This document shows positions 8,168 through 44,780 of a stretch of 64,000 nucleotides of DNA, in pieces. The position numbers and the translations under genes are program-made. Within the stretch, counting starts at the first letter, position 1. Every line of letters begins with the position of its first letter. The stretch lies in the NCBI RefSeq assembly GCF_051903065.1, contig NZ_CP178438.1; one strand, given 5' to 3'. This stretch comes from Escherichia coli. GTDB taxonomy: Bacteria > Pseudomonadota > Gammaproteobacteria > Enterobacterales > Enterobacteriaceae. The notes below the pieces were generated by a model. It was not told the DNA's origin and did not search any database. It saw only the letters and a list, made by a program, of their open reading frames with translations.

Positions 8168-8222
8168 GAGATAAAAAAGGCCGGAGCATGCTCCGGCCTT
8201 CGTTTTCATCACTGTGTTTTGA

Positions 8223-11521: not shown

Positions 11522-11539
11522 AAATGGGGCTTCTTGTGG

Positions 11540-13391
<1,852 letters not shown>

Positions 13392-18844: not shown

Positions 18845-18929
18845 GCCGAAGTGGCGAAATCGGTAGACGCAGTTGATTCAAAATCAACCGTAGAAATACG
18901 TGCCGGTTCGAGTCCGGCCTTCGGCACCA
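18845..18929 (+). tRNA. leuX: tRNA-Leu(CAA)
   Basis: GCCGAAGTGGCGAAATCGGTAGACGCAGTTGATTCAAAATCAACC...GGTTCGAGTCCGGCCTTCGGCACCA, 85 nt with long variable arm and encoded CCA. Confidence 0.97.
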
Positions 18930-20704: not shown

Positions 20705-22204
20705 TTACCTGTGGTCCGGAAGAATAAGTGGCTGCGGTTTCAGACTGTCTGCCGGCACATTTTTCTCTCCGTTAAAAACCATAACGGGTTCATTATCTTC
20801 GTCTGTCAGCGGATTGAATGGCGGTATATTTTCGGTACGAATACCGGTCAGCCACTGAAAAATGCCTGCGAAATTACGGGCACTGATTTTCCTGCTGACG
20901 GACTGATGAGACGTGATGTCACTGGCGGTAATAATCAGGGGAACGCTGTAGCCCCCCTGCACATGACCATCATGATGAACAGGATTAGCACTGTCGCTGA
21001 CCGACAGCCCATGGTCAGAAAAGTAAAGCATTGCAAAGTGACGGGAATGCCGGCGAAGGATACCATCAAGCTGACCGAGAAAGTTATCCAGTTTACTGAT
21101 GCTGGCGAGGTAACAGGCAATCTTTCGGGGATACTGCTCCAGGTAATAATTCGGCCAGGAGTTAAGTCGGTCACACGGATTCGGATGAGAGCCAATCATG
21201 TGCAGGAAAATCACCTTCGGCGAGGATTTATCCGCCAGCGCACGTTCTGTTTCCTGTAACAACAACATGTCATCCGTTTTACGGGAAGCGAAGCTGCCTT
21301 TCTTGAGGAAAACGGTATGCTCCGCATCAGAAGCAATAACAGAGATGCGTGTGTCATGCTCTCCCAGTTTTCCCTGATTGGATATCCACCATGTGCTGTA
21401 TCCTGCTTTTGCTGCCAGCGCCACCACGTTGTTGCCGGAGTCAGGGTTCTGCTCATAGTCATAAATCAGTGTCCGGCTCAGGGAAGGTACGGTACTGGCT
21501 GCTGTCGATGTATAGCCGTCAATAAATAAACCGGGAGCAGTATTCAGCCACGGCGTGGTTGGCACGGGATAGCCATATACCGACATATAATCCCTGCGCA
21601 CACTCTCACCAGTAACGATAACAATCGTGTCATACAACGGCACACCCGGCAGGATTTTCCAGTTATCAGCCCCGTGCTGACTCAGTTGTTTATAACGCTG
21701 CATTTCACGCAATGTGTCAGTTGTCCCCACAACAGTTCCTTTAACCATCCGCAACGGCCAGCTGTTTACAGAGCATAATACGAATAGCAGCAGTGCCAGC
21801 CAGTTACGGTGACCGCGGTGGTGTGTCCGCCAGAAAATCACCATGAATACCAGAATCGCGGCACTGACCAGAAAATGATAAACAGGAATCATCCCGGTAA
21901 ACTCTGCAGCCTCATCAGCCGTGGTCTGCAGCAACGCGACAATAAAACTGTTGTTGATTTTACCGTACGTCATACCCGCAGGCGCATACAGTGCACAACA
22001 GAACAGAAATAACAGCGCTGTAATGGATGTGAGGGTATTTCTGTGTGCAAGGAGAAGAAGGAGAAACAGAAGCAGCACATTTCCTGTGGCATTCTTCTCA
22101 GTGTATCCGCATGCAATTGTGGTTATTGCAGAAACAACAAAAAAGAATAAAAACAATAAAATCCGGGGTGTGTTTCCCGGACAAAACAGTTTTCTGATAT
22201 TCAT
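20705..22204 (-). CDS. Membrane-anchored sulfatase-family protein (phosphoethanolamine-transferase-like)
   Basis: N-terminal multi-TM segment then soluble domain with metal-binding-type motifs (TGESVRRD, HMIGSHPNP); family call from memory of architecture only. Confidence 0.55.
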   Translation of the reverse strand: MNIRKLFCPGNTPRILLFLFFFVVSAITTIACGYTEKNATGNVLLLFLLLLLAHRNTLTSITALLFLFCCALYAPAGMTYGKINNSFIVALLQTTADEAAEFTGMIPVYHFLVSAAILVFMVIFWRTHHRGHRNWLALLLFVLCSVNSWPLRMVKGTVVGTTDTLREMQRYKQLSQHGADNWKILPGVPLYDTIVIVTGESVRRDYMSVYGYPVPTTPWLNTAPGLFIDGYTSTAASTVPSLSRTLIYDYEQNPDSGNNVVALAAKAGYSTWWISNQGKLGEHDTRISVIASDAEHTVFLKKGSFASRKTDDMLLLQETERALADKSSPKVIFLHMIGSHPNPCDRLNSWPNYYLEQYPRKIACYLASISKLDNFLGQLDGILRRHSRHFAMLYFSDHGLSVSDSANPVHHDGHVQGGYSVPLIITASDITSHQSVSRKISARNFAGIFQWLTGIRTENIPPFNPLTDEDNEPVMVFNGEKNVPADSLKPQPLILPDHR

Positions 22205-22363
22205 CGGAGTATATCGACAACATTATGATGAAGAGAACAGGATAATAAAAATCAGAAATTATCTGTAAAACAGATAACAGACAACCCTGCAGTATAATTA
22301 CTGCAGGGTGTTTCCTTTTAATTACAGAAGATAAGTAATTATTATCTTTCAGGAGCAGTTTCG

Positions 22364-23104
22364 TCAGAAGTTATAAGTCACACCAAGCATGATGTCATGA
22401 CTTTTAACATCAACCTCTGATTTATATTTATCGCCCCACTCATCCTTGTAACTCACACTGCTGTCACCTGCATCAATATAGCGATAGCTGAGGTCAAGAG
22501 CGATATCCGGGGTTACGTCATAACGGACACCAGCCCCAAGGCTCCATGCAAAGTTGTCAGCAGAGTCTGAGTGTGACAACGACTCACGCCCACTGTACCC
22601 GTACCCATAATCCCAGGTACTGATACCAGTTGTTTTCTGATGAATTCTGGCGTAACCAATCCCTGCGGATACCCATGGTGTGAATGCACTGTCGTTCCGG
22701 AAGTCATAGTACGTATTCAGCATCAGAGTGTTGACTGACACTTCATTCTTCAGGTCATCACGCCAGTAACCACCTGACCAGCTGTCTTTATCTACGTTAT
22801 ACTTCGAATCAGCTTTTCCACGCGCGTAAAACTCCAGTTCTGTACGAACCGGAATACTGAACTGCGGATAAAAATCATAACCGGCCGCAATACCGCCACT
22901 GAATACCGTATCATGGTCATCGCCGCCTTTATACTTTGACGTTTCTTCCTCATCTCCTGACAGGAAACGCTGGTCTGAAAGTGACACCACAGAGGCACCG
23001 GCTTTACCGGTCAGATAAAAACCGCTTTTACCTTCCTCAGCACCTGCATTTGCTGCAAATACACAGGCTGCGGCCACCACTGAAACAGCAAAAACCTTTT
23101 TCAT
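22364..23104 (-). CDS. Small outer-membrane beta-barrel protein
   Basis: Signal peptide MKKVFAVSVVAAACVFAANA, alternating amphipathic strands, C-terminal GVTYNF with terminal Phe. Confidence 0.65.
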   Translation of the reverse strand: MKKVFAVSVVAAACVFAANAGAEEGKSGFYLTGKAGASVVSLSDQRFLSGDEEETSKYKGGDDHDTVFSGGIAAGYDFYPQFSIPVRTELEFYARGKADSKYNVDKDSWSGGYWRDDLKNEVSVNTLMLNTYYDFRNDSAFTPWVSAGIGYARIHQKTTGISTWDYGYGYSGRESLSHSDSADNFAWSLGAGVRYDVTPDIALDLSYRYIDAGDSSVSYKDEWGDKYKSEVDVKSHDIMLGVTYNF

Positions 23105-26644: not shown

Positions 26645-26753
26645 TTCATTACCTGTTACATTCTAAATAATCTCAGACAGATATTATCTCCGTGAATCCC
26701 CCGCCACCTTTCCGGTGCGCGGGGTTTTGTCTTTTTTCACCGGGAATACATGT

Positions 26754-27581
26754 ATGAATCCGTCTGATGCCATTGAGGCAATTGAAAAACCGCTCTCCTC
26801 CCTGCCTTACTCACTTTCCCGTCACATCCTGGAACATCTGCGCAAACTCACCAGCCACGAACCCGTGATTGGCATTATGGGGAAAAGCGGGGCCGGTAAA
26901 TCCTCACTCTGTAATGCACTGTTTCAGGGGGAGGTCACCCCGGTCAGTGATGTTCACGCCGGCACCCGGGAAGTGCAGCGCTTCCGTCTGAGTGGCCATG
27001 GTCACAGCATGGTTATCACTGACCTGCCCGGGGTGGGCGAGAGCCGTGACAGGGATGCAGAGTATGAAGCCCTGTACCGTAACATTCTGCCTGAACTTGA
27101 CCTGGTACTGTGGCTGATTAAAGCCGATGACCGTGCCTTGTCTGTGGATGAGTATTTCTGGCGACACATTCTGCACCGGGGACATCAGCAGGTGCTGTTT
27201 GTGGTGACGCAGGCCGATAAAACGGAGCCCTGCCATGAATGGGATATGGCCGGTATTCAGCCTTCTCCCGCACAGGCACAGAACATTCGCGAAAAAACGG
27301 AGGCGGTATTCCGTCTGTTCCGGCCCGTACATCCGGTTGTGGCCGTATCGGCTCGCACCGGCTGGGAACTGGATACGCTGGTCAGTGCGCTCATGACAGC
27401 GCTTCCCGACCATGCCGCCAGTCCCCTGATGACCCGCCTGCAGGACGAGCTGCGCACGGAATCTGTCCGCGCTCAGGCCCGTGAACAGTTTACCGGTGCG
27501 GTGGACCGGATATTTGACACGGCGGAGAGCGTCTGTATTGCCTCTGTTGCCCGCGCGGTATGGAACTGGATTTTCTTCTGA
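26754..27581 (+). CDS. YeeP/YkfA/YfjP-family GTPase
   Basis: P-loop GIMGKSGAGKSSL, DLPG switch motif, TQADK; likely start MNPSDAIEAIE at 26754. Confidence 0.8.
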   Translation: MNPSDAIEAIEKPLSSLPYSLSRHILEHLRKLTSHEPVIGIMGKSGAGKSSLCNALFQGEVTPVSDVHAGTREVQRFRLSGHGHSMVITDLPGVGESRDRDAEYEALYRNILPELDLVLWLIKADDRALSVDEYFWRHILHRGHQQVLFVVTQADKTEPCHEWDMAGIQPSPAQAQNIREKTEAVFRLFRPVHPVVAVSARTGWELDTLVSALMTALPDHAASPLMTRLQDELRTESVRAQAREQFTGAVDRIFDTAESVCIASVARAVWNWIFF

Positions 27582-27780
27582 ACCCGGTGGTGATGCACCA
27601 GACTCTTGTTACAGATTTTTAACTCCATGAAAACACAATGCAAACGCAGCCATACCCGGGTTGTCCCCTTGTGTTGTGTTTTCCAGATTAATAGAATGCA
27701 TCGATCGTTATAAACGATCGTTTGTGGTAAATGACCTCCTCCGTGGTTGTCATGAAAATGCGTCTCAGGAAGGTTAAATA

Positions 27781-30165
27781 ATGCACGAAAAGAACATCGC
27801 CCTGCTTTGTGATGAAGCCGACCGACTTTTGCAACTGAACATTAATCTGCTCCGGCAAATGGTTGATGAACCGGATGTGTTATCTGACAGTAAGAACGAA
27901 AACAGACTGCTTTTCGATAAACAGAAAGCACTGAAAAGAATTGAGGAGCTGGAGGGCGAACAAATCAAAACCGCCCGCAGGGAGATGGTGCTGGCTGTTG
28001 TCGGCACGATGAAAGCAGGTAAATCAACTACCATCAACGCCATTGTGGGGCAGGAAATTCTGCCTAACCGTAACCGCCCCATGACCTCTGTACCGACGCT
28101 CATCCGCCACGTTCCCGGAAAAACTGAGCCGGTCCTCCATCTGGAACATATTCAGCCCGTCCGCAATTTATTAAGCACACTGCAACAAAAACTCGACACC
28201 CCGGCAGGACAGCAAGTCGCACAGACCCTGCAGCAAACCGGGGATACCTGCGAACTGCTGGATATTCTGGCAAATGATGGCTGGCTCAAAAATGAATACC
28301 ACGGGGAGGAGGAAATCTTTACCGGACTGGCATCGTTAAACGATCTGGTTCGCCTTGCTGCGGCAATGGGGAGTGAGTTTCCTTTTGATGAATACGCAGA
28401 AGTGCAGAAACTGCCGGTGATCGACGTGGAATTCAGCCATCTGGTGGGGATGGATGCATGCCAGGGAACACTCACACTGCTGGATACCCCCGGCCCTAAT
28501 GAGGCCGGACAACCGCAGATGGAAGTGATGATGCGGGATCAACTGCAGAAAGCCTCTGCGGTGCTGGCGGTGATGGATTACACCCAGATGAACTCAAAAG
28601 CGGATGAAGACGTCCGTAAAGAGCTTAATGCCATTGCTGACGTATCAGCCGGCCGCCTGTTTGTGCTGGTCAATAAATTTGATGAGAAAGACCGCAATGG
28701 CGATGGGGCAGATGCCGTACGCCAGAAAGTTCCGGCAATGCTGAACAGTGATGTGCTGCCCGCCTCCCGCGTTTATCCAGGCTCATCACGTCAGGCGTAC
28801 CTGGCTAACCGTGCGCTTCATGAGTTACGGAAAAACGGAACCCTTCCTGTTGATGAAGCCTGGGTCGATGATTTTGTCAGGGAAGCCTTCGGTCGCATGA
28901 AAAAAGAATACGTCTGTAAAGACAGTGAAATGGCAACCGAAGGGGCGACAGACCTGTGGGAAGGTTCACTTATCGATCAACTGATAACGGAAGTCATACA
29001 GAGCTCCCATTCCAGAGCGGCGGCACTGGCGGTTGATTCTGCCGCCGCAAAACTGATGCAGAATGCGGAAAATGTCAGCGAATATCTGTCATTACGCCAT
29101 CAGGGGCTACAGCAAAGCATTCAGTCACTGCAGGCGCATATCTCCAGCCTGCTGGCGGATATCCGGGAAATCGCGGACTGTCAGGAGCAGGTGACCGCAG
29201 ATGTCAGAATGGCTATGGAGGAGATCGATACTAAAACCCGGGAATTACTGACGGGGGTCTGCACCTCACTGGAAGAGGAGCTGAATGACTATTTCAGAAG
29301 CGGTAAACGCAAAGAACAGCAAATGCTGGAGGAAGAAAATTCAGCGCAGCCCCGGGAGAGAAACGCATTCGCTTTCTTTCACGATATTTTCGGAACCGGA
29401 AATCAGCATGACAGGATGCGGGACTTTGATCCGGACAGCCCCGAAATAAAATTCAGTGATCGCAGGGAAGCCCTTGAACTGATGACGCAAATCGAATCGA
29501 CCGTGACCAGCCTGCACCGTGAGGCTGAAGCACAGTTCCGTCCTGAACTGGAAAAAATCGTCAGGGGTATTGAAACAGGTTTTCGTGGTACGGCCCTGTA
29601 CGCCACAGAAAATATTGCCGGACGCATCAATGCCCGTCTGGAGGATGAAGGTTTCACTGTAAAAATCAGTTTTCCGGCAGTCAGCCAGTTACAGACCCGG
29701 CTCGCAGTAAAAACAAATCTGAGCGCGCTTATGGAGGAAAGAACGGAGACCGTCACTCGTCGCTGTCGACAGGATGGTGTCTGGGGTACGCTTTGTCGAT
29801 GGGCAAACACCAGTGACTGGGGCTGGAAAGAGTACAGTGTGGATGTGAGCCGCAGCGTGATCAATATCAACAAGGTCAGAGAGGAAGTGATGTCACTGAC
29901 CCGGGCATATTTCGGGGAGCTGCAGGCATCCATTGAGCAGGATATTAACCAGCCCGTCCGCCAGGAAATCGATGCCTTTTTCTGCGCATTCAGGGAGAAA
30001 GTTGAACAACTGCGTAACACGCTGATTCAGAGCTCTGAAGATCGTAAACGCGATCAGCAGGCGCAGGAACGGCTTACCGGGCGACTTCAGGCATTAAATG
30101 AAAGGGTTCCTGAGCTCATTACTGACAGTAAGGCGCTGAGGGAAGAGCTGGAGACAATGCTGTGA
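27781..30165 (+). CDS. Dynamin-like GTPase, CrfC/YjdA paralog
   Basis: 794 aa; G1 motif VVGTMKAGKSTTINAIVG, LDTPGPNE, VLVNKFDEKD; long coiled-coil C-terminal half; RBS AGGAAGG upstream. Confidence 0.85.
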   Translation: MHEKNIALLCDEADRLLQLNINLLRQMVDEPDVLSDSKNENRLLFDKQKALKRIEELEGEQIKTARREMVLAVVGTMKAGKSTTINAIVGQEILPNRNRPMTSVPTLIRHVPGKTEPVLHLEHIQPVRNLLSTLQQKLDTPAGQQVAQTLQQTGDTCELLDILANDGWLKNEYHGEEEIFTGLASLNDLVRLAAAMGSEFPFDEYAEVQKLPVIDVEFSHLVGMDACQGTLTLLDTPGPNEAGQPQMEVMMRDQLQKASAVLAVMDYTQMNSKADEDVRKELNAIADVSAGRLFVLVNKFDEKDRNGDGADAVRQKVPAMLNSDVLPASRVYPGSSRQAYLANRALHELRKNGTLPVDEAWVDDFVREAFGRMKKEYVCKDSEMATEGATDLWEGSLIDQLITEVIQSSHSRAAALAVDSAAAKLMQNAENVSEYLSLRHQGLQQSIQSLQAHISSLLADIREIADCQEQVTADVRMAMEEIDTKTRELLTGVCTSLEEELNDYFRSGKRKEQQMLEEENSAQPRERNAFAFFHDIFGTGNQHDRMRDFDPDSPEIKFSDRREALELMTQIESTVTSLHREAEAQFRPELEKIVRGIETGFRGTALYATENIAGRINARLEDEGFTVKISFPAVSQLQTRLAVKTNLSALMEERTETVTRRCRQDGVWGTLCRWANTSDWGWKEYSVDVSRSVININKVREEVMSLTRAYFGELQASIEQDINQPVRQEIDAFFCAFREKVEQLRNTLIQSSEDRKRDQQAQERLTGRLQALNERVPELITDSKALREELETML

Positions 30166-31067
30166 CTTCACCATTTATTCAACAAATTGCTGATAACCGG
30201 GTATGTCAGGTACTCACCTGTCTTCCTGAAAAATTTGTGGTTGATTTCGCAAACGGAATCGATGTTGCACAGGAGCATATCCGCACGGCCGGAGAGCGCA
30301 CGTTCTTCCGGCGTTTAAAAGAGGGGATGACCGGCGAAGGCGCTGCACGGCAGAATGCCATCAATGCTTCGCTTGCACAGGGCGTTGAGGCGTCCCTGCG
30401 CTGGCTGACGGAGCTGACAACGTCACTTGCCACCACAAACTACGCGATTACCCGGGTAAACGACAGGGTCAGTTCACTGGTCAGTGATACTGCCAGGCTG
30501 GCGCATTATTCGGCTGACACGCGGGAGCAGTTACTCACCCTGGCCGATCAGGTTCACCAGAAACTGAATCATCTTGAAGAAAAACTCCACCGTGTTGACC
30601 AGGTTCAGCGGGCGCAGTTACATCTTGAGCAGATATTCTCATGGTGGAGCGCCGGGCGATATGCGTCATTTTCCCCTGCCGGACGTTGTTATGTGGCACT
30701 TGAAGAGCTTCGCTGGGGCGCGTTTGGTGATGTGATACGCCAGGGCGAAACAGGCCAGGTTAACCAGCTACTGGATATTCTCAGACATAAAGCATTAACG
30801 CAGATGGCACAGGAGAGTGGCGGTAGTGCAACCGTGCGTCTGAACACTCTGGACTGGCTTGGTGGTCAGGGCCGGGAGCAGGCAGATAACGAGTGGCATG
30901 ACGCGATTAACTGGCTGGGGGACTGGTGCAGTGAAGAGCAGCATCCGGTGATCTGGTCAACCACGCAGGCTGCAGAACACTTACCGGTTCGCATGCCTCG
31001 CCTCTGCTCTGCAGAACGCCTCTCTGAAAGTATGGTCGATGAAATATTTCAGAAGGGGGCAGCATGA
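30162..31067 (+). CDS. YjcZ-like protein (partner of the dynamin-like GTPase)
   Basis: GTG start overlapping upstream stop; N-terminus resembles K-12 YjcZ as recalled (LPEKFVVDFANGIDV.QEHIRTAGERTFFRRLK). Confidence 0.7.
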   Translation: MTSPFIQQIADNRVCQVLTCLPEKFVVDFANGIDVAQEHIRTAGERTFFRRLKEGMTGEGAARQNAINASLAQGVEASLRWLTELTTSLATTNYAITRVNDRVSSLVSDTARLAHYSADTREQLLTLADQVHQKLNHLEEKLHRVDQVQRAQLHLEQIFSWWSAGRYASFSPAGRCYVALEELRWGAFGDVIRQGETGQVNQLLDILRHKALTQMAQESGGSATVRLNTLDWLGGQGREQADNEWHDAINWLGDWCSEEQHPVIWSTTQAAEHLPVRMPRLCSAERLSESMVDEIFQKGAA

Positions 31068-32134
31068 GTACAGAAATGAAAACGGGGCTGGTGCTGTCCG
31101 GCGGCGGGGCGGTGGGCGCTTATCAGGCAGGTGTGGTTAAGGCACTGGCAGAGTGTGGCACACAGATCAGCATGGTTTCAGGGGCCAGCATTGGCGCATT
31201 CAATGGTGCCATTATCGCGGCCTCTCCCGATCTGTCAGAAGCAGCCGCACGCCTGGAGGCGCTCTGGAAGCATCTGGGGAATAATCAGGTGCTGTCGGTA
31301 AACCGATCGGTTTACTTTTCATTGCTGAAAAAAATGGTTCAGGCCATGAACCTCTGCCAGATCCCCGGACGTGCAGGAGCACTGCTTACGACACTTCTTC
31401 GCCATATATCGATAATCAACGGCTTCGACAATCCGATGGCTCAGCCGCTGTTGTCAGATGAGCCTCTGACAGCGCTGTTGGATCATTATCTTGATACTGA
31501 TGCTCTGGCAGACGGGCTACCGCTGTATGTGTCGCTGTACCCCACAGAAGGGGGCATGCAGGATATTATTGACTGCATTCGTGCTGAACTGGGTGCCGGA
31601 ACCACGAAAAACGCCGTTTTTCAGCATATCCAGAGCCTGCCCCGCGGACAGCAGAAAGAGGCTCTGCTTGCGTCAGCCGCGCTGCCCCTGCTGTTCCGTC
31701 CCCGTGAGGTTCAGGGGACAATGTTCGGTGATGGTGGTATGGGAGGATGGCGAAATATGCAGGGAAATACCCCTGTGACGCCTCTGGTCGATGCCGGATG
31801 CAATATGGTGATTGTGACGCATCTGAGTGACGGTTCTTTATGGGATCGCCAGGCTTTTCCGGACACCACAATCCTTGAGATCCGTCCCCGGAAAAGGCTG
31901 AAATATGCAGGTGATGGTGGCAACAGCGGCGGTCTGCTCAGTTTCACGTTGGCACATACCGACGCCTGGCGTCAGCAGGGCTATGAAGACACGATGCTGA
32001 CGATGGAGCATATCCGGAAACCGCTGGCAGCACGTCAGGTACTGTCCCGGTCAGAAACGGTGTTGCAGAAAAGTCTGGAGATAACGGAAGAGGCAGATTT
32101 GGCACTGAGAAACGCGATGGCCCGGATTAAATAA
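31064..32134 (+). CDS. Patatin-like phospholipase
   Basis: ATGA start/stop overlap with upstream gene; Gly-rich loop LSGGGAVGAYQAG, nucleophile elbow GASIG (GxSxG), DGG motif in FGDGGMGG. Confidence 0.85.
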   Translation: MSTEMKTGLVLSGGGAVGAYQAGVVKALAECGTQISMVSGASIGAFNGAIIAASPDLSEAAARLEALWKHLGNNQVLSVNRSVYFSLLKKMVQAMNLCQIPGRAGALLTTLLRHISIINGFDNPMAQPLLSDEPLTALLDHYLDTDALADGLPLYVSLYPTEGGMQDIIDCIRAELGAGTTKNAVFQHIQSLPRGQQKEALLASAALPLLFRPREVQGTMFGDGGMGGWRNMQGNTPVTPLVDAGCNMVIVTHLSDGSLWDRQAFPDTTILEIRPRKRLKYAGDGGNSGGLLSFTLAHTDAWRQQGYEDTMLTMEHIRKPLAARQVLSRSETVLQKSLEITEEADLALRNAMARIK

Positions 32135-32968: not shown

Positions 32969-33181
32969 ATGAAAACTTTTATCAAAACTTTACTCGTTGC
33001 TGTAACTATTCTGTTCTCTGTCTTCGCTACTGCGAAACAAGTAAAACTGCCAAATAACATCAAATACGTTAATACTACAGAAGCGTTTTCCTGTACCGAA
33101 ATTGACGGTATGAATTGCCAGACAAAGAATCAGTTCAACTATAAAGATAACAGCTATGTGGTGATGCTGCCAACTTACTGA
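32969..33181 (+). pseudogene. Small secreted-protein gene truncated by IS1 (last 6 codons and stop lie in the IS1 terminal repeat)
   Basis: Signal peptide MKTFIKTLLVAVTILFSVFATA; frame runs into GGTGATGCTGCCAACTTACTGA of IS1. Confidence 0.5.
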
Positions 33182-33214
33182 TTTAGTGTATGATGGTGTT
33201 TTTGAGGTGCTCCA

Positions 33215-33490
33215 GTGGCTTCTGTTTCTATCAGCTGTCCCTCCTGTTCAGCTACTGAAGGCGTGGTGCGTAACGGTAAAAGCACTGCCGGACATCAGCG
33301 CTATCTCTGCTCTCACTGCCGTAAAACATGGCAACTGCAGTTCACTTACACCGCTTCTCAACCCGGTACGCACCAGAAAATCATTGATATGGCCATGAAT
33401 GGCGTTGGATGCCGGGCAACTGCCCGCATTATGGGCGTTGGCCTCAACACGGTTTTACGTCACTTAAAAAACTCAGGCCGCAGTCGGTAA
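33215..33490 (+). CDS. insA: IS1 InsA
   Basis: 91-aa [21 protein letters not shown]... Confidence 0.9.
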
Positions 33491-33912
33491 CCTCGCGCAT
33501 ACAGCTGGGCAGTGACGTCATCGTCTGCGCGGAAATGGACGAACAGTGGGGATACGTCGGGGCTAAATCGCGCCAGCGCTGGCTGTTTTACGCGTATGAC
33601 AGGCTCCGGAAGACGGTTGTTGCGCACGTATTCGGTGAACGCACTATGGCGACGCTGGGGCGTCTTATGAGCCTGCTGTCACCCTTTGACGTGGTGATAT
33701 GGATGACGGATGGCTGGCCGCTGTATGAATCCCGCCTGAAGGGAAAGCTGCACGTAATCAGCAAGCGATATACGCAGCGAATTGAGCGGCATAACCTGAA
33801 TCTGAGGCAGCACCTGGCACGGCTGGGACGGAAGTCGCTGTCGTTCTCAAAATCGGTGGAGCTGCATGACAAAGTCATCGGGCATTATCTGAACATAAAA
33901 CACTATCAATAA
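33409..33912 (+). CDS. insB: IS1 transposase InsB
   Basis: 167-aa [24 protein letters not shown]... Confidence 0.9.
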
Positions 33913-34216
33913 GTTGGAGTCATTACCCACTTTTTGAAAGCAACCAGATGATAGGGTAAAGATAAGTGCTGTGTTCGGCGGTAAATTCTCAGTACCACCC
34001 ATTGAAAATCGAACGGGGAAACGGGAAATTTGGAGCAAAGTGCTGGTATGCAAGGGATGTGTGGATCTCTGTGACGGGAAAACTACGGGGATATTGCGGG
34101 AAAGGGACGGGGGAAAGGTTCTATGTTGATGCTGATCAGATCTTTTCTAGTTTGCACTTGCTCATACCGTGAACAGCGTTAGTGTGGTGAGCATCATTTG
34201 CCAAAAGGGTTAGACA

Positions 34217-35440
34217 ATGAATGCCATACAGCAGCATGCTGCAGCGCTTCTGGATAGTGTTGCACGATGGAATGAAGTGACGACTCTGGCTAAATTACGC
34301 TATCAGGCCGAGCTGGCACCTGATTTCAGCCTCATGGACTGGCTGAAGAATGACGAACTGGCCCTTTCACGCTATCTACGATTTTTGCTTTCTCCTGATG
34401 AAACTCATGGTCAGTCATCACTGTTTCTAAAGGGATTTCTCTCCCTCATTGAAAAGAGTGGGCACGATAGCCCTATAACCACCGGAGGTAGCCATCATAA
34501 AGTCAGGGTTGATTATGAAGTCACTATTGAAAACAGAAGAAAGATAGACCTGTTGATGACATCTTCAGAGGGTTTTATTGCTATCGAAAATAAGCCATGG
34601 GCAGCAGATCAGGAAAATCAGTTACGGGATTATGCATTATGGCTGAACAAATGTGAAAGACCATGGAAGTTAATTTATTTATGCAATCAGGATCCGGGAG
34701 AGTGGACTCTTCCTGGCAATACTCCGGAAGCACTGAAGCAACATATCCTAACGATATCCTGGCATGAAGTCGTCAAATGGCTGAACGAATGTTTATTGCA
34801 TGTTCGGGCAGGTGCGGTCAAAATATTTGTTGAATCATTGATTAAATATATCAACCAGTCAATTAATGGTGAGTTCATAATGGATAATAGTCGTGAGTTG
34901 TCAGAAATCATCCGCAAGGATAGCTACTCTATAGAATCGGCATTTATGATTTTTAACCAGATGAATGAGGTTCGCAACGATTTATTCAAAGAGTTTATTT
35001 CTGATTTAAATGCCAGTTTCATTAATCATCCTTATTCTATTGAAACCTCGGATGGGGACCTATCGAAACGTGGGGCTAATTTTTATATCCCATTAAGCCC
35101 GGATGGTAATTACTCTTTGTGCTGGGAGTTTGAATATTCAGGTTATTATGGTTTATTTTTTGGCATTTCGGGAGTGAGTCTGGTTGAAGGTCAATCTGCA
35201 AAAATAGCTGCTGCCATGTCAGAGATATTTCCACACACGCAGGGTAAATCCAGCGAATACTGGTCATGGTGGAGCAGGGGTTTAGATCTGCAAGGGAAAA
35301 ATCGCATTCCTAGAGACTGGGGTAATGATGGAGCGGTTTGGGCGAAGCTCCGTGAGCGTGATGCAGACAGCATTTTTGCAGCCACCCGTGAAGCGATTCT
35401 GGCCGTTCATGAAAAGCTGGATATGGACTTATTGCGTTAA
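34217..35440 (+). CDS. Hypothetical protein with PD-(D/E)xK nuclease-like motif
   Basis: 407 aa; KIDLLMTSSEGFIAIENKPW fits the D-x(n)-E-x-K restriction-endonuclease-fold pattern around residues 110-126; no other recognisable domain. Confidence 0.5.
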   Translation: MNAIQQHAAALLDSVARWNEVTTLAKLRYQAELAPDFSLMDWLKNDELALSRYLRFLLSPDETHGQSSLFLKGFLSLIEKSGHDSPITTGGSHHKVRVDYEVTIENRRKIDLLMTSSEGFIAIENKPWAADQENQLRDYALWLNKCERPWKLIYLCNQDPGEWTLPGNTPEALKQHILTISWHEVVKWLNECLLHVRAGAVKIFVESLIKYINQSINGEFIMDNSRELSEIIRKDSYSIESAFMIFNQMNEVRNDLFKEFISDLNASFINHPYSIETSDGDLSKRGANFYIPLSPDGNYSLCWEFEYSGYYGLFFGISGVSLVEGQSAKIAAAMSEIFPHTQGKSSEYWSWWSRGLDLQGKNRIPRDWGNDGAVWAKLRERDADSIFAATREAILAVHEKLDMDLLR

Positions 35441-35484
35441 TTATTTGATCGTTTTCAGAAAATGCCTGAAGTGAGAGAGGGGAC

Positions 35485-36021
35485 ATGGATAATATCGAAG
35501 ACAGCGTTCCGCTTGGTATACAGCAGTTGATTGATGCTGAGAACGACGGGAAGATTTGGCTAAACAGTATTCCGGTCGTGAACGAGCTGTTGGATGATTT
35601 GCAGCGCGTGGCGTGGCATGTGCGAATTCAACAGGCAAAACATGAGATAACGGCGCACAAAAGCGCGTATTTGGTGAATGCCAAAATCAGCGAACTGGTG
35701 CAGATCTTCGAGGGGCGGAATCCGGCTTATGCTGTCCTGCCGTGGAATACCGATCCCCACCAGATGAAAGCATATATTACGAAACAGGACGACTACTGGG
35801 GAGACGATGCCGACGTTACCCATGATGATGCCTTGCCGCGATTACTCGATTGCTGTGCCGCTGCGGCAACTTTTGGCGTTGAGTCGCTATTGCCAGACTG
35901 CCCTGAGATATTCCGCAGTAGCAAAGAACAAGTTCTCGCTGACCTGTCTGAGCAGCGCTATCTGGCTGGCGCATTACTGATGGGGGTGCCAGTAGATATA
36001 TTTATCCAGATGGTGGGCTAA
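35485..36021 (+). CDS. Hypothetical protein (178 aa), 45 bp downstream of the PD-(D/E)xK gene
   Basis: ORF with GAGAGAGG RBS-like sequence upstream; no recognised motif. Confidence 0.45.
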   Translation: MDNIEDSVPLGIQQLIDAENDGKIWLNSIPVVNELLDDLQRVAWHVRIQQAKHEITAHKSAYLVNAKISELVQIFEGRNPAYAVLPWNTDPHQMKAYITKQDDYWGDDADVTHDDALPRLLDCCAAAATFGVESLLPDCPEIFRSSKEQVLADLSEQRYLAGALLMGVPVDIFIQMVG

Positions 36022-36454
36022 ATAAACCCTAAGACCGCTACACTTTTGCCAATCCAAGTTTACTTCCGGTTTCCATGAAGTGGTGAACCTTTTTCAACAG
36101 CAGCACATTGAACGACATTGGTGATTGCGAGTTATCGTGTCATGAAAAGCTTGCCATAGTCTGCTCAGTAATTGAATAACTGTAATCCTGTGGCTTTTGG
36201 CTATATCAGTTGGAGTAAGCTGGTTGAAGGAGCGCTCATAACCGATTTTATTGAGAACCGTGAACAAGGCCGGGAATCCTTTCCGGGATTGTGAGGGGTT
36301 GAGCAAGCCTACGGGCGCGGTAGTGTTTTTTACACCAGCCCGGAACAGTTTGGAAACCAGAGCTTCGTTTAGGGTTGTGTCTATTGTTGGTGGGTAAGAT
36401 CATTTTTTGTGTTTAGTCAGCCAGCATCATATGAATTTAACCGAGTGAGCAGCA

Positions 36455-37300
36455 ATGGGGATTTTCAATAGAATCAAAAAGGCTCTTGGTTTGGAAGTGC
36501 GAAAGGGGTTTCGACGCTGGTCCACTTCTGAGCTTGAAGAGAAGAAGGCTTATCTAGAAAACAAGTCCGCAGAAGAGTTCACTGCAAAAGATCACCATCT
36601 GTCGGCAGAATGGGTCATTCAACGTTATTTACCAGTAGGTGAAGAGCCTACACCCGAACAATGGTCAGAGGTCTCTGGTGACATTCAGCAGAAAATTGAC
36701 ATCAATTTAAATAAGGCTGCTGCGGGTGAACTCCTTAAAACTGAGTATATGCAACCCGCTCGCTATACCCTCACCAAGGACGACTTCCTAAGTGATATAG
36801 TGCCCGCTTTCTCAAGGTTTGATTGGCTACCAAATCCTCATTCAAAGGATTGGCAAGGCCGCGAAATCTGGGAATCGCTCTATGAATTTACTCAGCCGTA
36901 TTCTTTTAAGCATGGTGAAGCAAAAGATGCTCTGATGAGTATCTGTGACACCTACCAGGCTATGCACCTAGTAATGGATCTAGCGCGGACATACTCTCAA
37001 ATTTGCCAAGCGCAGCTTGATGGCTCGACGAGGATTAAGGTGGTTTGTTCTGGCAAGCATTGTGATGACTGCATGACTCTTGTTGGCACGAAACTGGGCG
37101 TTGATGAACTGCTAGCTACATTTAAGAATGGAGTTCCAAAATTTCCTCATCCTTTGCATTATGAAGATGAAGTTCGTTGGTGCCCGGCACCATTTCTATC
37201 GCCGGAGAGCCCACTTAAGGATGACGATGATCCAGAGTTTCATGCCTTTTTAGTTGATCTGTTTGATGGACCAGAGAAGCACAAAGACAAATCAAATTGA
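36455..37300 (+). CDS. Hypothetical protein (281 aa) with Cys cluster CSGKHCDDC
   Basis: ORF with acidic C-terminus; possible metal-binding Cys cluster; no recognised family. Confidence 0.45.
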   Translation: MGIFNRIKKALGLEVRKGFRRWSTSELEEKKAYLENKSAEEFTAKDHHLSAEWVIQRYLPVGEEPTPEQWSEVSGDIQQKIDINLNKAAAGELLKTEYMQPARYTLTKDDFLSDIVPAFSRFDWLPNPHSKDWQGREIWESLYEFTQPYSFKHGEAKDALMSICDTYQAMHLVMDLARTYSQICQAQLDGSTRIKVVCSGKHCDDCMTLVGTKLGVDELLATFKNGVPKFPHPLHYEDEVRWCPAPFLSPESPLKDDDDPEFHAFLVDLFDGPEKHKDKSN

Positions 37301-37389
37301 AATCTACGTCAGGAATAGAGCCAATAGAAATGTTGAAGGGGAGGCCAGATCAAATGCAATTATGCCCTTATCTGGGTAGTGACTCCAAC

Positions 37390-37893
37390 TTATTGATAGT
37401 GTTTTATGTTCAGATAATGCCCGATGACTTTGTCATGCAGCTCCACCGATTTTGAGAACGACAGCGACTTCCGTCCCAGCCGTGCCAGGTGCTGCCTCAG
37501 ATTCAGGTTATGCCGCTCAATTCGCTGCGTATATCGCTTGCTGATTACGTGCAGCTTTCCCTTCAGGCGGGATTCATACAGCGGCCAGCCATCCGTCATC
37601 CATATCACCACGTCAAAGGGTGACAGCAGGCTCATAAGACGCCCCAGCGTCGCCATAGTGCGTTCACCGAATACGTGCGCAACAACCGTCTTCCGGAGCC
37701 TGTCATACGCGTAAAACAGCCAGCGCTGGCGCGATTTAGCCCCGACATAGCCCCACTGTTCGTCCATTTCCGCGCAGACGATGACGTCACTGCCCGGCTG
37801 TATGCGCGAGGTTACCGACTGCGGCCTGAGTTTTTTAAGTGACGTAAAATCGTGTTGAGGCCAACGCCCATAATGCGGGCTGTTGCCCGGCAT
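37390..37893 (-). CDS. insB: IS1 transposase InsB
   Basis: 167-aa ORF identical to copy A InsB. Confidence 0.9.
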
Positions 37894-38087
37894 CCAACGC
37901 CATTCATGGCCATATCAATGATTTTCTGGTGCGTACCGGGTTGAGAAGCGGTGTAAGTGAACTGCAGTTGCCATGTTTTACGGCAGTGAGAGCAGAGATA
38001 GCGCTGATGTCCGGCAGTGCTTTTACCGTTACGCACCACGCCTTCAGTAGCTGAACAGGAGGGACAGCTGATAGAAACAGAAGCCAC
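37812..38087 (-). CDS. insA: IS1 InsA
   Basis: 91-aa [21 protein letters not shown]...NTILRHLK. Confidence 0.9.
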
Positions 38088-38257
38088 TGGAGCACCTCAA
38101 AAACACCATCATACACTAAATCAGTAAGTTGGCACCATTACCAGAAATAGTGACCAATAACTATTTATGTAAATTACATTAAAAACAAAAAAAATACTGC
38201 GCTCTTTATTTTTTACTTATTATCTGATAAAGTATCCCTCGTAGATTTATATAGGGG

Positions 38258-39580
38258 ATGATTATGCGCAAGTATTATTATTTTTTTATATATTCCGTAA
38301 TATCTTTTAATTCCATAGCAGCAGATCCACAAGTGAAACAAGATGATGGGGTGGGTAGTGATTCTTTTTTTATTACAAGTTCTTCTAACACACCAACCAA
38401 GAAAGAAAATGTACAGGGGACTAATTCTGTTGCTATTGGCAATAATGTTCAGATTAAGAAGGGAGATGGTTCAGATCTCAAAAATATGAGTGACGGTTCA
38501 GTAGCTATTGGAAATGGTGCCTCAACTATGTATGAAGGAACTACTGCTGTGGGTAAAGGGGCAAAAGCAACTGGCTGGCGCTCAACAGCAATTGGAGTGG
38601 GTGCGACCACAAATGCTGAATCAGCTACAGCCATGGGTAATGGTGCAAATGCCAATAACTGGGGGGCTAGCGCATACGGGACTATCGCAAAAGCAACGGG
38701 TACAAACTCAACAGCAATAGGTAATGCAGCTCAAAGTTCAGGAGAACTTTCTACAGCATTAGGTGTTTCATCACAAAGTACTGGGCATTATTCAGCAGCG
38801 CTAGGTACTTTATCTAAGGCTGAAGGATATGGTTCTGTTGCTACCGGCCTTCATGCTAATGCAAAATCTCAATATGGTATTGCACTCGGTTCATATTCAG
38901 TCGCTGATCGTGCCGCACTTGATGATACAATGTTGGGAGCTATTTCTGTAGGCGGTACAGCTAATGACACTCTAGGGTACAGGACACGTCAAATTATTAA
39001 CCTTGCAGCAGGGACAGAAGATAATGATGCCGTGAATGTATCACAACTTAAGAAAGAGGCAGGAGAAAGAGTTGCGGGCGATGCAGCTACCTTAACAGCA
39101 GCTAAGAATTACAGCGATGCTGGTAATAAACAAACGCTGAAAACAGCTAATGAATATAGCGACGCTGGCGATGCGAAAACATTACAGACAGCAAAGAATT
39201 ATAGTGACACCGGAGACGAGAGAACACTGAACAGTGCTAATAATTATACCAATACTGCCGTTAAGAAAAGCAATGCCAATACGCTTTATCAGGCAAATCA
39301 GTATACTAATCAGAAGTTCTCTGAATTGCGTAAAGTAGTTGATGAAAATCGTAAACGTTCGGATGCCGGCATTGCCGGAGCTATGGCTATGACGGCGATT
39401 GCACCTGTCCCCTATAAAGATTATTCATTCGGTATGGCTGCAGGTGGCTATCGCGATCAAGGTGCAATTGCGGCAGGGATTAATATCAAAACAAGTGAAA
39501 GCTCGTTAATGAAAGTAAATGCATCTTGGGACAGCCAGAATGGTGGTGGTATTGCGGCTGGTTTTAATGTCGGATGGTAA
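38258..39580 (+). CDS. YadA-like trimeric autotransporter adhesin
   Basis: Signal peptide; head repeats (NSVAIGNN, SVAIGNGA, STAIGVGA, STAIGNAA); neck-like NAVNVSQLK; stalk repeats AKNYSDAG/ANEYSDAG; C-terminal anchor ending GFNVGW. Confidence 0.8.
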   Translation: MIMRKYYYFFIYSVISFNSIAADPQVKQDDGVGSDSFFITSSSNTPTKKENVQGTNSVAIGNNVQIKKGDGSDLKNMSDGSVAIGNGASTMYEGTTAVGKGAKATGWRSTAIGVGATTNAESATAMGNGANANNWGASAYGTIAKATGTNSTAIGNAAQSSGELSTALGVSSQSTGHYSAALGTLSKAEGYGSVATGLHANAKSQYGIALGSYSVADRAALDDTMLGAISVGGTANDTLGYRTRQIINLAAGTEDNDAVNVSQLKKEAGERVAGDAATLTAAKNYSDAGNKQTLKTANEYSDAGDAKTLQTAKNYSDTGDERTLNSANNYTNTAVKKSNANTLYQANQYTNQKFSELRKVVDENRKRSDAGIAGAMAMTAIAPVPYKDYSFGMAAGGYRDQGAIAAGINIKTSESSLMKVNASWDSQNGGGIAAGFNVGW

Positions 39581-39659
39581 AAGATTGCAAGTGGACAATC
39601 GTAAATAATGCTTCAAAAAACGAGATAGTTCAGTAACTAGTCATTTAAATTTCTACCAT

Positions 39660-39689
39660 AACCCCCTCAAATCATTGAGGGGGTTTTTG
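39660..39689 (+). terminator. Rho-independent terminator after adhesin gene
   Basis: CCCCCTCAAATCATTGAGGGGG hairpin followed by TTTTT. Confidence 0.6.
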
Positions 39690-39782
39690 TATATGTTGCA
39701 GAGAGTTTTATCGTAAGACTGAAGCGCCACGGTTTTAACAGCCCCCTCTGAGTCATTAAAAATGGATTAAAGAGAAGTGTCC

Positions 39783-39881
39783 ATGAGCGGTAAGCGTTAT
39801 CCCGAAGAGTTTAAAATTGCAGCGGTAAAAATGTTGCTTACATCTATCTGGCATCAGGAAAATCTGTGCCCAAACGGGTAA
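39783..39881 (+). pseudogene. IS3-family orfA N-terminal fragment
   Basis: MSGKRYPEEFKIAAVKML... typical IS3-family OrfA start, terminates after 32 codons. Confidence 0.4.
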
Positions 39882-40009
39882 TCCGCACACAATCGCCTCA
39901 ACAACTGGACAGGCTCTGAGGCCAATATAATAGTCAGGTTCCGATTGTGCAGGTGCAACCTGTCACCATTTCTCAGTACGCTGCAACTTTTGCTGGCAGG
40001 GGATTAATT

Positions 40010-41026
40010 TCACACTACCTGATATTCGGTCTCATTTCCCAGCATCGACCAGATTATTCGCGCGTTTTTGTTAGCGACCGCCACGGTCGTTTTATTAAAT
40101 CCGCGCCGTTCCTTTAACTGGTTAACCCACTGATTAATATGACTATCATTGTTATTCGTGGCATCCCTGACGACAGCTCGGGCACCATGAATAAAAAGTG
40201 TTCTCAGATGCTTGTCGCCTTTTTTCGTCATATTCATCAGCACCTGCCTGTAGCCACTCGAATGCTGGCGTGGAACCAGACCCAGCCATGCAGCAAAGTG
40301 GCGGCCATTCTTAAATTCAGTTCCTTTGCCAATAGCAGCAACAACGGCCGTGGCCGTTTTAGGGCTAATACCTTTAACTTGGGCGATACGCTGACAGGCT
40401 TCTAATTGCCTGAATACTGTTTCAATTTCCTTATCAAAAAAATGGATCCGACGCTTGAGATCGTTAAAGAGATCATAGAGTTCGGCAATCGTCCTGCGCA
40501 TTCTAACGCTAAGACCATTTTCAGCATCTTCAAGGATAAGCGGTACAGCACGACTAACTCTTGAGACTACCGCGCCAATTGGTTATTCCCCGATCAAGCA
40601 GCAGTCCCCGGATTTGACAGACTGTCGCAGTACGATGATTGACAATACGCTGTCTTGCACGGTGCAGAGCCTGAATATCCTGCTGTTCAGGGCTTTTCGG
40701 TGGAACAAACTGCATCGTAGGTTGCATCAGACCCACAGCAATCGCCTACGCATCGTTACCATCATTTTTTGCCCTCGGACAAAAGGTTTTACATATTGGG
40801 GGCTGATGACTTTTACGTTATGACCCAGTTTCTCAAACTCACGCTGCCAGTAAAATGCCCCGGTGGACGCTTCGCTCCCAATCAGACATGCAGGAATATT
40901 TGCCAGCGTCTGGAGCAATTCTTTTCGGCCAGTGCGTTTCGTAAAAACCGGTTTACCGGCCTAGTTTAACCAGCAGATCTGAAAAACATTTTTAGCCAGA
41001 TCAATACCCAGAAATACGATCTTCAT
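40010..41026 (-). pseudogene. IS110-family transposase pseudogene (one in-frame stop, two frameshifts)
   Basis: Minus strand from 41026: MKIVFLGIDLAKNVFQICWLN then TAG; continues in ORFs 40727..40918, 40554..40736 and 40010..40501 in shifted frames. Confidence 0.75.
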
Positions 41027-41223
41027 GGTGATTCTCCTGGTGAACACATTTCGTATAGTTAACCTTAGAGGGAGGAGGTAGTCCATCCCATTAACTGGAA
41101 GTCCAGATATGACGGCATAGAAAAAATCAAGGTTCTTAAGGACAGAACCACCGTCTCAAACAGATGTTTGCTGACCTGAGTCTGGAAAACCGGGGGCTGA
41201 AAGACATTATCAAAAAAGCTTTA

Positions 41224-44780
<3,557 letters not shown>

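What the first reader, a model, noticed from the sequence alone, without database searches (positions are those of the whole stretch)
38258..39580. YadA-like trimeric autotransporter between an IS1 copy and an IS graveyard
Head repeats, neck-like motif, repetitive stalk (AKNYSDAG / ANEYSDAG / AKNYSDTG) and a short C-terminal beta-barrel anchor ending in W. It is short (440 aa), comparable to immunoglobulin-binding Eib-type adhesins, and is flanked by IS1 on one side and IS3/IS110 remnants on the other, suggesting acquisition as separate cargo. Putative adhesion/serum-resistance factor.
Basis: partly seen in the sequence, partly recalled or inferred. Interest (0 to 1): 0.4.

Follow-up and report, generated by a model that had tools for sequence, protein, structure and literature searches.

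The report
Uncharacterised YadA-like adhesin gene, IS-mobilised
This is an intact gene for a small three-chain surface adhesin of the well-known YadA type, carried between insertion sequences in an E. coli genomic island; it is a real but ordinary new member of a known family, and its binding partner is unknown.

Summary
Window 38258-39580 (+) is an intact ORF, with the true start most likely ATG 38264 (438 aa). It has every part of a type Vc trimeric autotransporter adhesin: a Sec signal peptide, 12 YadA-type head repeats, a neck, a coiled-coil stalk with three 15-residue YxD repeats, and a complete four-strand anchor ending in W. All three Pfam TAA domains pass their curated cut-offs, and an AlphaFold model and Foldseek agree.

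It is not a copy of any characterised adhesin:
- Yersinia YadA: 30% identity, collinear.
- Saa: 39% identity, C-terminal part only.
- EibD: generic head repeats only, with no match to the Ig-binding stalk.
- APEC eYadA: anchor only.

The window is an E. coli leuX island. The 1.5-kb gene cassette, with an IS110 pseudogene and IS3 debris, recurs in other contexts: a pheU island, other chromosomal sites, and a plasmid where two IS1 copies bracket it. It is present in 32 of 5,426 complete genomes.

Alleles keep a near-identical neck, stalk and anchor but carry divergent heads (dS 1.36 versus 0.03). dN/dS of about 0.3 indicates a functional coding gene.

Verdict: a new member of a known kind, of modest interest. 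Adhesin or autoaggregation function is inferred, not shown.

The parts
37375..38142 (-). Complete IS1 copy. insA starts at 38087 and is transcribed away from the adhesin gene. The IS1 end lies 121 nt upstream of the adhesin start codon.
   Evidence: 768-bp blastn matches to other IS1 copies; insA/insB ORFs; RefSeq 'IS1 family transposase' in the identical strain; terminal inverted repeat read.
38173..39695 (+). The gene cassette proper: AT-rich 5' region, ORF and terminator. This is the stretch that stays homologous in a divergent allele at an unrelated site.
   Evidence: blastn of window against L012: 38173-39695 at 80%. GC is 0.36-0.46, against about 0.5 or more in many neighbouring windows.
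38253..38257 (+). Shine-Dalgarno AGGGG, 6 nt before ATG 38264.
   Evidence: Sequence read; conserved as GAGAGG/AGGGG in alleles.
38264..39580 (+). Adhesin ORF, 438 aa plus stop. Precursor 45.0 kDa; 42.6 kDa after signal-peptide removal.
38264..38320 (+). Signal peptide, aa 1-19: MRK + YYYFFIYSVISF + NSIA|AD. It is the classical short Sec type, not the extended ESPR type.
   Evidence: Hydropathy profile and sequence. No dedicated predictor was available.
38414..38983 (+). YadA-type head (left-handed parallel beta-roll), aa about 51-240. It holds 12 repeats with the xxA[IVM]G motif, 10 of them in exact 14-residue register (aa 79-218). The last two repeats are lengthened to 21 and 19 residues.
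   Evidence: register; Pfam YadA_head, 5 stretches; AF2 pLDDT 96-99 with regular strands; Foldseek to the BoaA (3S6L), BpaC (7O23) and YadA (1P9H) heads, TM 0.65-0.79 on the target.
38990..39061 (+). Neck, aa 243-266 (TRQIINLAAGTEDNDAVNVSQLKK). It is also the recombination breakpoint between variable heads and the constant C-terminal module.
   Evidence: Pfam PF05662; alignment to the YadA neck. Homology with the P0118 allele begins at 38990.
39062..39394 (+). Coiled-coil stalk, aa 267-377.
   Evidence: AF2 helices 259-328 and 336-377. Residues 319-378 align to the solved YadA stalk segment 3H7X (E = 6e-7).
39089..39223 (+). Three perfect 15-residue (pentadecad) repeats, each with a Y-S-D motif: TLTAAKNYSDAGNKQ / TLKTANEYSDAGDAK / TLQTAKNYSDTGDER. 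Two degenerate YTN repeats follow.
   Evidence: daTAA defines right-handed TAA stalks as pentadecads with a YxD motif five residues from the repeat end (PMC2373917). One allele lacks exactly one repeat (P0112, 423 aa).
39413..39577 (+). YadA-like membrane anchor, aa 384-438. It has four beta-strands and ends ...AAGFNVGW.
   Evidence: Pfam PF03895 to profile end; 2LME alignment 16-105; AF2 strands 387-396, 399-411, 414-423, 428-436; Foldseek to the Hia, YadA and AtaA anchors.
39660..39695 (+). Intrinsic-terminator-like hairpin (11 pairs, 6 of them GC) followed by a T-run, 80 nt after the stop codon.
   Evidence: It lies inside the stretch conserved in L011 and L012.
40010..41026 (-). IS110-family transposase pseudogene (frameshifted, internal stop). 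It travels with the adhesin gene in every close (>=96% identical) context examined.
   Evidence: RefSeq annotations; shared blastn block 38196-41263.
41093..42034 (+). IS3-family fragments. The second is cut at 42034 by a group II intron (42035-44295, ltrA at 42706-44214), and the IS3 copy resumes after the intron.

Best explanation
The ORF encodes an intact YadA-class trimeric autotransporter adhesin (type Vc secretion) that moves horizontally.

Inferred mechanism, from the established biology of the family:
1. The 19-residue signal peptide takes the 45-kDa precursor through Sec.
2. Three copies each contribute four C-terminal beta-strands to a 12-stranded outer-membrane barrel inserted by BAM. 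The terminal F-x-V-x-W fits the usual beta-signal.
3. The three passengers pass through the pore and fold outside into a lollipop. This is a beta-roll head of 12 repeats, a neck, a right-handed pentadecad (YxD) coiled coil that changes to a left-handed one as in YadA, and then the anchor.
4. The head is the likely binding or self-association surface, so the probable role is adhesion and/or autoaggregation. The ligand is unknown.

Shown here: the architecture, the intactness of the ORF, purifying selection, a mosaic of variable heads on a constant stalk and anchor, and IS-associated movement between tRNA islands and a plasmid.

Inferred only: trimerisation, surface display, expression and adhesive function.
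For: - Domain content: all three Pfam TAA domains exceed their gathering scores.
- Similarity to YadA: collinear alignment from head to last strand at 30% identity over 362 residues. phmmer hits the solved YadA head, stalk and anchor.
- Structure: AF2 model with mean pLDDT 77.9 shows beta-roll, long helix and four strands. Foldseek hits are only TAA heads and anchors.
- Repeats: 14-residue head register and YxD pentadecads fit the daTAA rules (PMC2373917).
- Superfamily size: 8,186 cluster representatives at E <= 0.001.
- Selection: dN/dS is 0.38 against the MIN10 allele and 0.37 against the P0117 allele.
- Gene signals: the ORF is intact in most carriers, with its own Shine-Dalgarno sequence and terminator.
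Against: - No expression signal could be demonstrated. The promoter scan finds nothing upstream above chance.
- Every close (>=96% identical) context has an IS within about 70-120 nt of the start codon, so the native promoter may be truncated.
- Three of the 25 listed carriers have the gene disrupted or possibly disrupted: IS5-family insertions in H32 and H38, and a 1-bp length difference in H31.
- The AF2 model is a monomer of an obligate trimer and is poor for residues 300-346.
- No functional test of adhesion exists for this protein in the literature searched.
Confidence: 0.85

Rival explanations
1. It is an Eib-type immunoglobulin-binding protein. Its main role would then be non-immune binding of IgG/IgA Fc and serum resistance.
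For: - Similar size: 45 kDa, against 42-54 kDa for Eib proteins in the table of PMC7247748.
- Foldseek lists EibD 2XQH (E = 1.4e-6) as a head-plus-stalk match.
- PHROGs shows prophage-borne TAA families related to the C-terminal 260 residues.
Against: - phmmer against the EibD fragment 2XQH matches only generic head repeats (chain residues 22-138 and 31-138).
- The stalk-plus-anchor query does not hit EibD even at E <= 10. From my own knowledge, not checked here, the 2XQH fragment contains the Ig-binding coiled coil.
- The Foldseek match has rmsd 26.8 Å and 18% identity.
- The gene sits in a tRNA island among IS elements, not in a prophage.
Confidence: 0.05
2. It is a variant or orthologue of Saa, the STEC autoagglutinating adhesin, relocated to the chromosome.
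For: Saa is the best named BLAST relative: 39% identity over residues 166-438. The stalk end and anchor are very similar (NRKRSDAGIAGAMAMTAI..., YSFGMAA..YRD..AIAAG).
Against: - The N-terminal 180 residues of Saa have no counterpart here.
- Saa scores only one YadA_head hit, and its 37-residue stalk repeats are absent from this protein.
- Identity is far below orthologue level.
- A truer Saa-like protein exists on phage phiSTEC1589-Stx1c, and it differs from this one in the same way.
Confidence: 0.03
3. It is a silent passenger: an intact but unexpressed or decaying gene stranded among IS debris, with no current role. This rival is not exclusive of the best explanation as to what the protein is.
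For: - The gene is flanked on both sides by IS elements and pseudogenes.
- The upstream region is cut at different points by IS1, ISKpn26 and IS66 in different strains.
- No promoter-like site lies upstream.
- Some carriers have IS5 insertions in the gene.
- It is rare, present in 32 of 5,426 genomes.
Against: - dN/dS is about 0.3-0.4 in both head and stalk.
- The ORF is intact at 99-100% identity on hundreds of contigs.
- At least 68 nt upstream, the Shine-Dalgarno sequence and the terminator are retained in all contexts.
- From general knowledge, not tested here: many E. coli autotransporter adhesins are silenced by H-NS in the laboratory yet are functional.
Confidence: 0.2

Closest known systems
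YadA of Yersinia enterocolitica / Y. pseudotuberculosis (pYV plasmid)
   Same: - Same size class: 438 aa against the 421 aa translated from pYVe8081.
- Same order of parts: short signal peptide, 14-residue beta-roll head, neck, pentadecad YxD stalk with the conserved right-to-left-handed transition segment, and a four-strand anchor.
- The alignment is collinear from head to C-terminus.
   Different: - Only 30% identity.
- NCBIfam YadA model scores 117 bits against a cut-off of 750.
- More head repeats.
- Chromosomal and IS-borne in E. coli, not on pYV.
- Collagen binding and serum resistance are untested.
Saa (STEC autoagglutinating adhesin, pO113-type plasmids)
   Same: Most similar anchor and membrane-proximal stalk, with 39% identity over the C-terminal 270 residues. 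Both are short E. coli TAAs carried on mobile DNA.
   Different: Saa has an unrelated N-terminal domain, a minimal head and 37-residue stalk repeats.
Eib proteins (EibA, C, D, E, F, G; prophage-borne)
   Same: Short E. coli TAAs of similar mass with YadA-like head repeats.
   Different: No detectable similarity to the EibD stalk. The context is not a prophage. Only the EibD fragment could be tested.
eYadA of APEC strain TW-XM (WP_000859812.1; Vet Res 2026, PMC12955052)
   Same: An E. coli 'YadA family' TAA recently linked to adhesion, motility, biofilm formation and virulence in poultry-derived E. coli.
   Different: A different gene: 338 aa, at the cueR-ybbJ locus, alignable only over the anchor (31% over 91 residues).
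UpaG / EhaG
   Same: Chromosomal E. coli TAAs with YadA-like head repeats.
   Different: They are 160-178 kDa proteins (PMC7247748) against 45 kDa here. No direct alignment was made.

Membership tests
Trimeric autotransporter adhesin (type Vc secretion) | C-terminal YadA-like anchor: four beta-strands per chain, complete to an aromatic C-terminal residue | tested here: met
   PF03895 scores 28.8 against 22.7 and matches to profile position 60/60. 2LME aligns to its last residue. AF2 gives four strands. Foldseek hits the Hia, YadA and AtaA anchors.
Trimeric autotransporter adhesin (type Vc secretion) | Passenger built of head, neck and coiled-coil stalk in that order | tested here: met
   This fits the daTAA rules that Ylhead repeats lead into a neck, and that a right-handed stalk lies between the last neck and the anchor.
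Trimeric autotransporter adhesin (type Vc secretion) | N-terminal Sec signal peptide | tested here: met
   n-region MRK, 12-residue hydrophobic core, SIA|AD cleavage-type motif. Judged by eye; no predictor was available.
Trimeric autotransporter adhesin (type Vc secretion) | Forms a heat-stable homotrimer displayed on the cell surface | not testable with these tools
   Needs expression, SDS-PAGE or western blot, and surface labelling.
YadA proper (Yersinia equivalog) | Score at or above the NCBIfam NF033478 cut-off | tested here: not met
   117.4 bits against a cut-off of 750; 30% identity.
Eib immunoglobulin-binding proteins | Sequence similarity to the Eib passenger, including the Ig-binding coiled-coil stalk | tested here: not met
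   EibD 2XQH matches head repeats only. There is no stalk match at E <= 10. EibA, C, E, F and G were not available for testing.
Eib immunoglobulin-binding proteins | Non-immune binding of IgG Fc / IgA | not testable with these tools
   Needs a binding assay.
Eib immunoglobulin-binding proteins | Carried by a lambdoid prophage | tested here: not met
   The neighbours are IS elements and island genes inside a leuX island.
Saa | Saa-specific N-terminal domain and 37-residue stalk repeats | tested here: not met
   BLASTP aligns only residues 166-438 with Saa 182-460, with large gaps at the Saa repeats.
eYadA (APEC TW-XM) | Orthology with WP_000859812.1 | tested here: not met
   31% identity over 91 anchor residues only; different locus.
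UpaG / EhaG | Large (>1,500 aa) multi-head fibre at the conserved chromosomal locus | not tested
   Size alone (438 aa against 160-178 kDa) argues against it. No UpaG or EhaG sequence was retrieved.

The most novel reading that the evidence does not exclude
This may be a further, so far unstudied class of E. coli trimeric adhesin, alongside Eib, Saa, UpaG/EhaG and eYadA. It would be a compact YadA look-alike whose head domain is exchanged as a cassette on a constant neck-stalk-anchor module. IS1 would shuttle it between tRNA islands and plasmids. Its over-representation among poultry and bird isolates (11-12 of 31 carriers) could reflect a host-specific colonisation role.
Probability: 0.3. Interest if true: 0.45.

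Novelty: new member of a known kind. Interest (0 to 1): 0.25.

Why it matters
A 2019 review lists only four characterised kinds of E. coli trimeric adhesin (PMC7247748), and a 2026 paper adds eYadA. This protein is none of them, yet it is intact, under purifying selection and mobile.

If it is expressed, it would be a compact and tractable YadA-like adhesin in E. coli. It offers natural head-swap alleles on an identical stalk and anchor, which is a ready-made system for mapping head specificity. It is also a possible marker or colonisation factor in poultry-associated lineages.

It does not change any concept of how such adhesins work.

Tried and rejected
1. Mosaic with a plasmid adhesin. Plasmid NZ_CP134806 shares only the 3' 580 bp at 94.8%. 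Inspection shows a truncated remnant with an 84-aa ORF, not a hybrid gene.
2. Identity with the recently published APEC 'eYadA'. Rejected: it is a different gene.
3. A Fur box at the conserved TTATCTGATAA palindrome upstream. The best match is 10/19 to the consensus, below the shuffled controls.
4. Sigma-70 promoter upstream. None was found, and the counts equal the shuffles.
5. DNA-level tandem repeat for the stalk. TRF finds none; the repeat is visible only at the protein level.
6. Retrieving Eib and UpaG/EhaG sequences. Cluster names and the phage and plasmid collections gave no named Eib or UpaG. Only the PDB fragment of EibD could be compared.
7. Literature search for the RefSeq accession WP_066019388 and for a TAA in pheU or leuX islands. 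Nothing was found.
8. NCBIfam. No specific family passes its cut-off.

Full report
**1. The observation**

An ORF of 440 codons lies at 38258-39580 on the + strand.

- Head: the motif xxA[IVM]G recurs 12 times. Ten copies sit at exactly 14-residue spacing, at aa 79-218 in 438-aa numbering. This is the NSVAIG-S repeat of the YadA-like head described by daTAA (PMC2373917).
- Domain scores: Pfam YadA_head (49.7 bits against a cut-off of 25), YadA_stalk/neck (35.3 against 28.4) and YadA_anchor (28.8 against 22.7, matched to the last profile position) all pass their curated cut-offs.
Two degenerate YTN repeats follow.
- Interpretation of the stalk: daTAA states that right-handed TAA stalks are built of pentadecads with a YxD motif five residues from the repeat end. 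It also states that they occur only between the last neck and the anchor. That is the arrangement here.

The probable start codon is ATG 38264, not 38258.

- The Shine-Dalgarno AGGGG abuts 38258 but lies 6 nt before 38264.
- RefSeq uses 38264.
- A divergent allele has GTG at that position and nothing at the earlier one.

A terminator-like hairpin with a T-run lies 80 nt after the stop codon.

**2. What the protein is**

- Solved structures, by sequence: phmmer against the PDB hits only TAA pieces. These are the BpaC, BoaA and YadA heads, the YadA stalk segment 3H7X (aa 319-378), and the YadA membrane anchor 2LME aligned to its last residue.
- YadA: BLASTP against Y. enterocolitica YadA gives one collinear alignment from the head to the last strand, at 30% identity.
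- Predicted structure: an AlphaFold2 model built on 34 homologues has mean pLDDT 77.9 and 96-99 across the head. It shows a regular beta-roll (aa 35-240), a long helix (259-377, with a low-confidence break at 329-335) and four C-terminal strands.
- Fold comparison: Foldseek against the PDB returns only TAA heads and the Hia, YadA and AtaA anchors with significant scores.
- Signal peptide: the N-terminus is MRK, then 12 hydrophobic residues, then NSIA|AD. This is a short classical signal peptide. A recent survey links extended signal peptides to long TAAs, so a short one is what that survey would lead one to expect for a short TAA.
- Family size: the superfamily has 8,186 cluster representatives at E <= 0.001.

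Membership of the type Vc family is therefore established as far as sequence and predicted fold can establish it. Trimerisation and surface display are inferred.

**3. What it is not**

- YadA proper: the NCBIfam YadA model scores 117 bits against a cut-off of 750.
- Saa: it is the nearest named relative by BLAST, at 39% identity. The alignment covers only the last head repeats, neck, stalk and anchor. Saa's N-terminal domain and 37-residue repeats have no counterpart.
- Eib: the solved EibD fragment matches only generic head repeats. It does not match the stalk even at E <= 10. The Foldseek match to it is loose, with rmsd 26.8 Å.
- eYadA: the protein recently studied in APEC strain TW-XM (PMC12955052) is a different 338-aa protein at the cueR-ybbJ locus. 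It is alignable only over the anchor.
- Literature: a 2019 review counts four characterised kinds of E. coli TAA, namely Eib, Saa, UpaG and EhaG. I found no paper on this protein. Databases call it 'YadA-like family protein' or 'hemagglutinin'.

**4. Genomic setting and mobility**

The window is an E. coli leuX island. tRNA-Leu(CAA) lies at 18845-18929, followed by an integrase. The window is 99.9% identical to strain GDSC2BY4G.

The gene lies between a complete IS1 (37375-38142) and a run of IS remains. That run comprises:
- an IS110 pseudogene;
- IS3 fragments;
- a group II intron that splits one IS3 copy.

The same 8.9-kb block (33160-42034) sits in a pheU island in strain E89. Across the contexts at >=96% identity, the constant core is 38196-41263, which is the adhesin gene plus the IS110 pseudogene and an IS3 fragment. 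The upstream junction differs between contexts:

| Context | Upstream junction |
|---|---|
| This window and E89 | IS1 at 38142/38143 |
| DSM 103246 group | ISKpn26 remnant from 38180 |
| MIN10 | IS66 debris |
| Plasmid pPKF8-41kb | IS1 at 38198/38199 |

On plasmid pPKF8-41kb the 3.4-kb segment is bracketed by two directly oriented IS1 copies. The same 8 bp, GCGCTCTT, sits at both inner junctions. This is the pattern expected of an IS1 cointegrate with a circular form of the segment.

A divergent allele (P0117) at yet another site is homologous only over 38173-39695, which defines the gene cassette proper.

The gene occurs in 32 of 5,426 complete E. coli genomes, at 39 places and up to three copies per genome. 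By source, 11-12 of the 31 close matches come from poultry or birds, 8 from humans and 2 from cattle. The remainder are from food, the environment or an unrecorded source. The base rates of the collection are unknown, so the poultry excess is only a lead.

**5. Allelic structure**

- Mosaic pattern: alleles P0117 (444 aa) and P0118 (403 aa) have an almost identical neck, stalk and anchor. Their heads are divergent (P0117) or unrelated (P0118).
- Nucleotide identity to P0117 is 53-65% across the head and 95-100% from about 38900 onward.
- Synonymous divergence is 1.36 in the head against 0.034 in the rest. This 40-fold contrast means recombination, not merely faster protein evolution.
- Breakpoint: homology with P0118 starts at 38990, the first codon of the neck.
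- Repeat-mediated variation: one allele lacks exactly one 15-residue stalk repeat, and another lacks 24 residues between two SVAIGN motifs.
- Selection: dN/dS is 0.29-0.38 in the head and 0.17-0.52 elsewhere. The gene has therefore been maintained as a coding sequence.
- Disruption: three of the 25 listed carriers show it. Two have IS5-family insertions and one has a 1-bp length difference.

**6. Mechanism and confidence**

I commit to a functional YadA-class adhesin as set out in the best explanation. Confidence is 0.85 for the protein class and architecture. It is about 0.6 for adhesion or autoaggregation as the actual role.

Expression is the weak point.
- No promoter-like site stands out upstream.
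- Only 68-121 nt of native upstream DNA remain.
- That region is AT-rich, with homopolymer tracts whose length varies between strains.
- H-NS silencing, or a hybrid promoter with the IS1 end, is possible but was not tested.

**7. Verdict**

It is an ordinary example in kind: a new, uncharacterised member of a very large family. The head-swap mosaic and the IS1-mediated mobility are modest points of interest.

Noticed in passing
L008 (plasmid pPKF8-41kb, NZ_CP156818.1) 7276-12230; equivalent to window 38199-41616: The adhesin gene, IS110 pseudogene and IS3 fragment are bracketed by two directly oriented IS1 copies. The same 8 bp, GCGCTCTT, sits at both inner junctions, and there is no outer target duplication. 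This looks like an IS1 cointegrate with a circular 3.4-kb molecule.
   Followed up: partly
L003 2134-3345 (phage phiSTEC1589-Stx1c, PQ600364.1 45015-46226): A CDS annotated 'terminase large subunit' is in fact a Saa-like trimeric autotransporter. It has Pfam YadA_anchor and YadA_head domains and an N-terminus like that of Saa. It lies just after the Rz and Bor genes of an Stx1c phage.
   Followed up: partly
window 42035-44295: A group II intron with its reverse transcriptase/maturase (ltrA, 42706-44214) is inserted in an IS3-family copy. It is absent from the otherwise identical block in strain E89.
   Followed up: partly
window 38183-38215: Homopolymer tracts just upstream of the adhesin gene differ in length between strains (A8 or A9; T5, T6 or T7). 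Whether this affects expression is unknown.
   Followed up: partly
window about 20705-23104 (- strand): An island-borne phosphoethanolamine transferase (EptA-like) gene and an adjacent outer-membrane protein gene lie directly after the leuX integrase.
   Followed up: no
window about 26743-32123: A cluster of GTPase, dynamin-family protein, RdcB-family diguanylate cyclase regulator and patatin-like phospholipase lies in the leuX island. A PD-(D/E)XK nuclease gene follows at 34217-35440, between two IS1 copies.
   Followed up: no
L007 3028-3735 (strain MIN10): A second, shorter 'YadA-like family protein' (235 aa) lies 5 kb from the adhesin gene, among IS66, IS256 and IS3 debris.
   Followed up: no
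L005 4000-4579 (plasmid NZ_CP134806.1): A 580-bp 3' remnant of this adhesin gene (94.8% identity) lies next to a cdiA contact-dependent inhibition locus on an IncF/IncI plasmid.
   Followed up: partly
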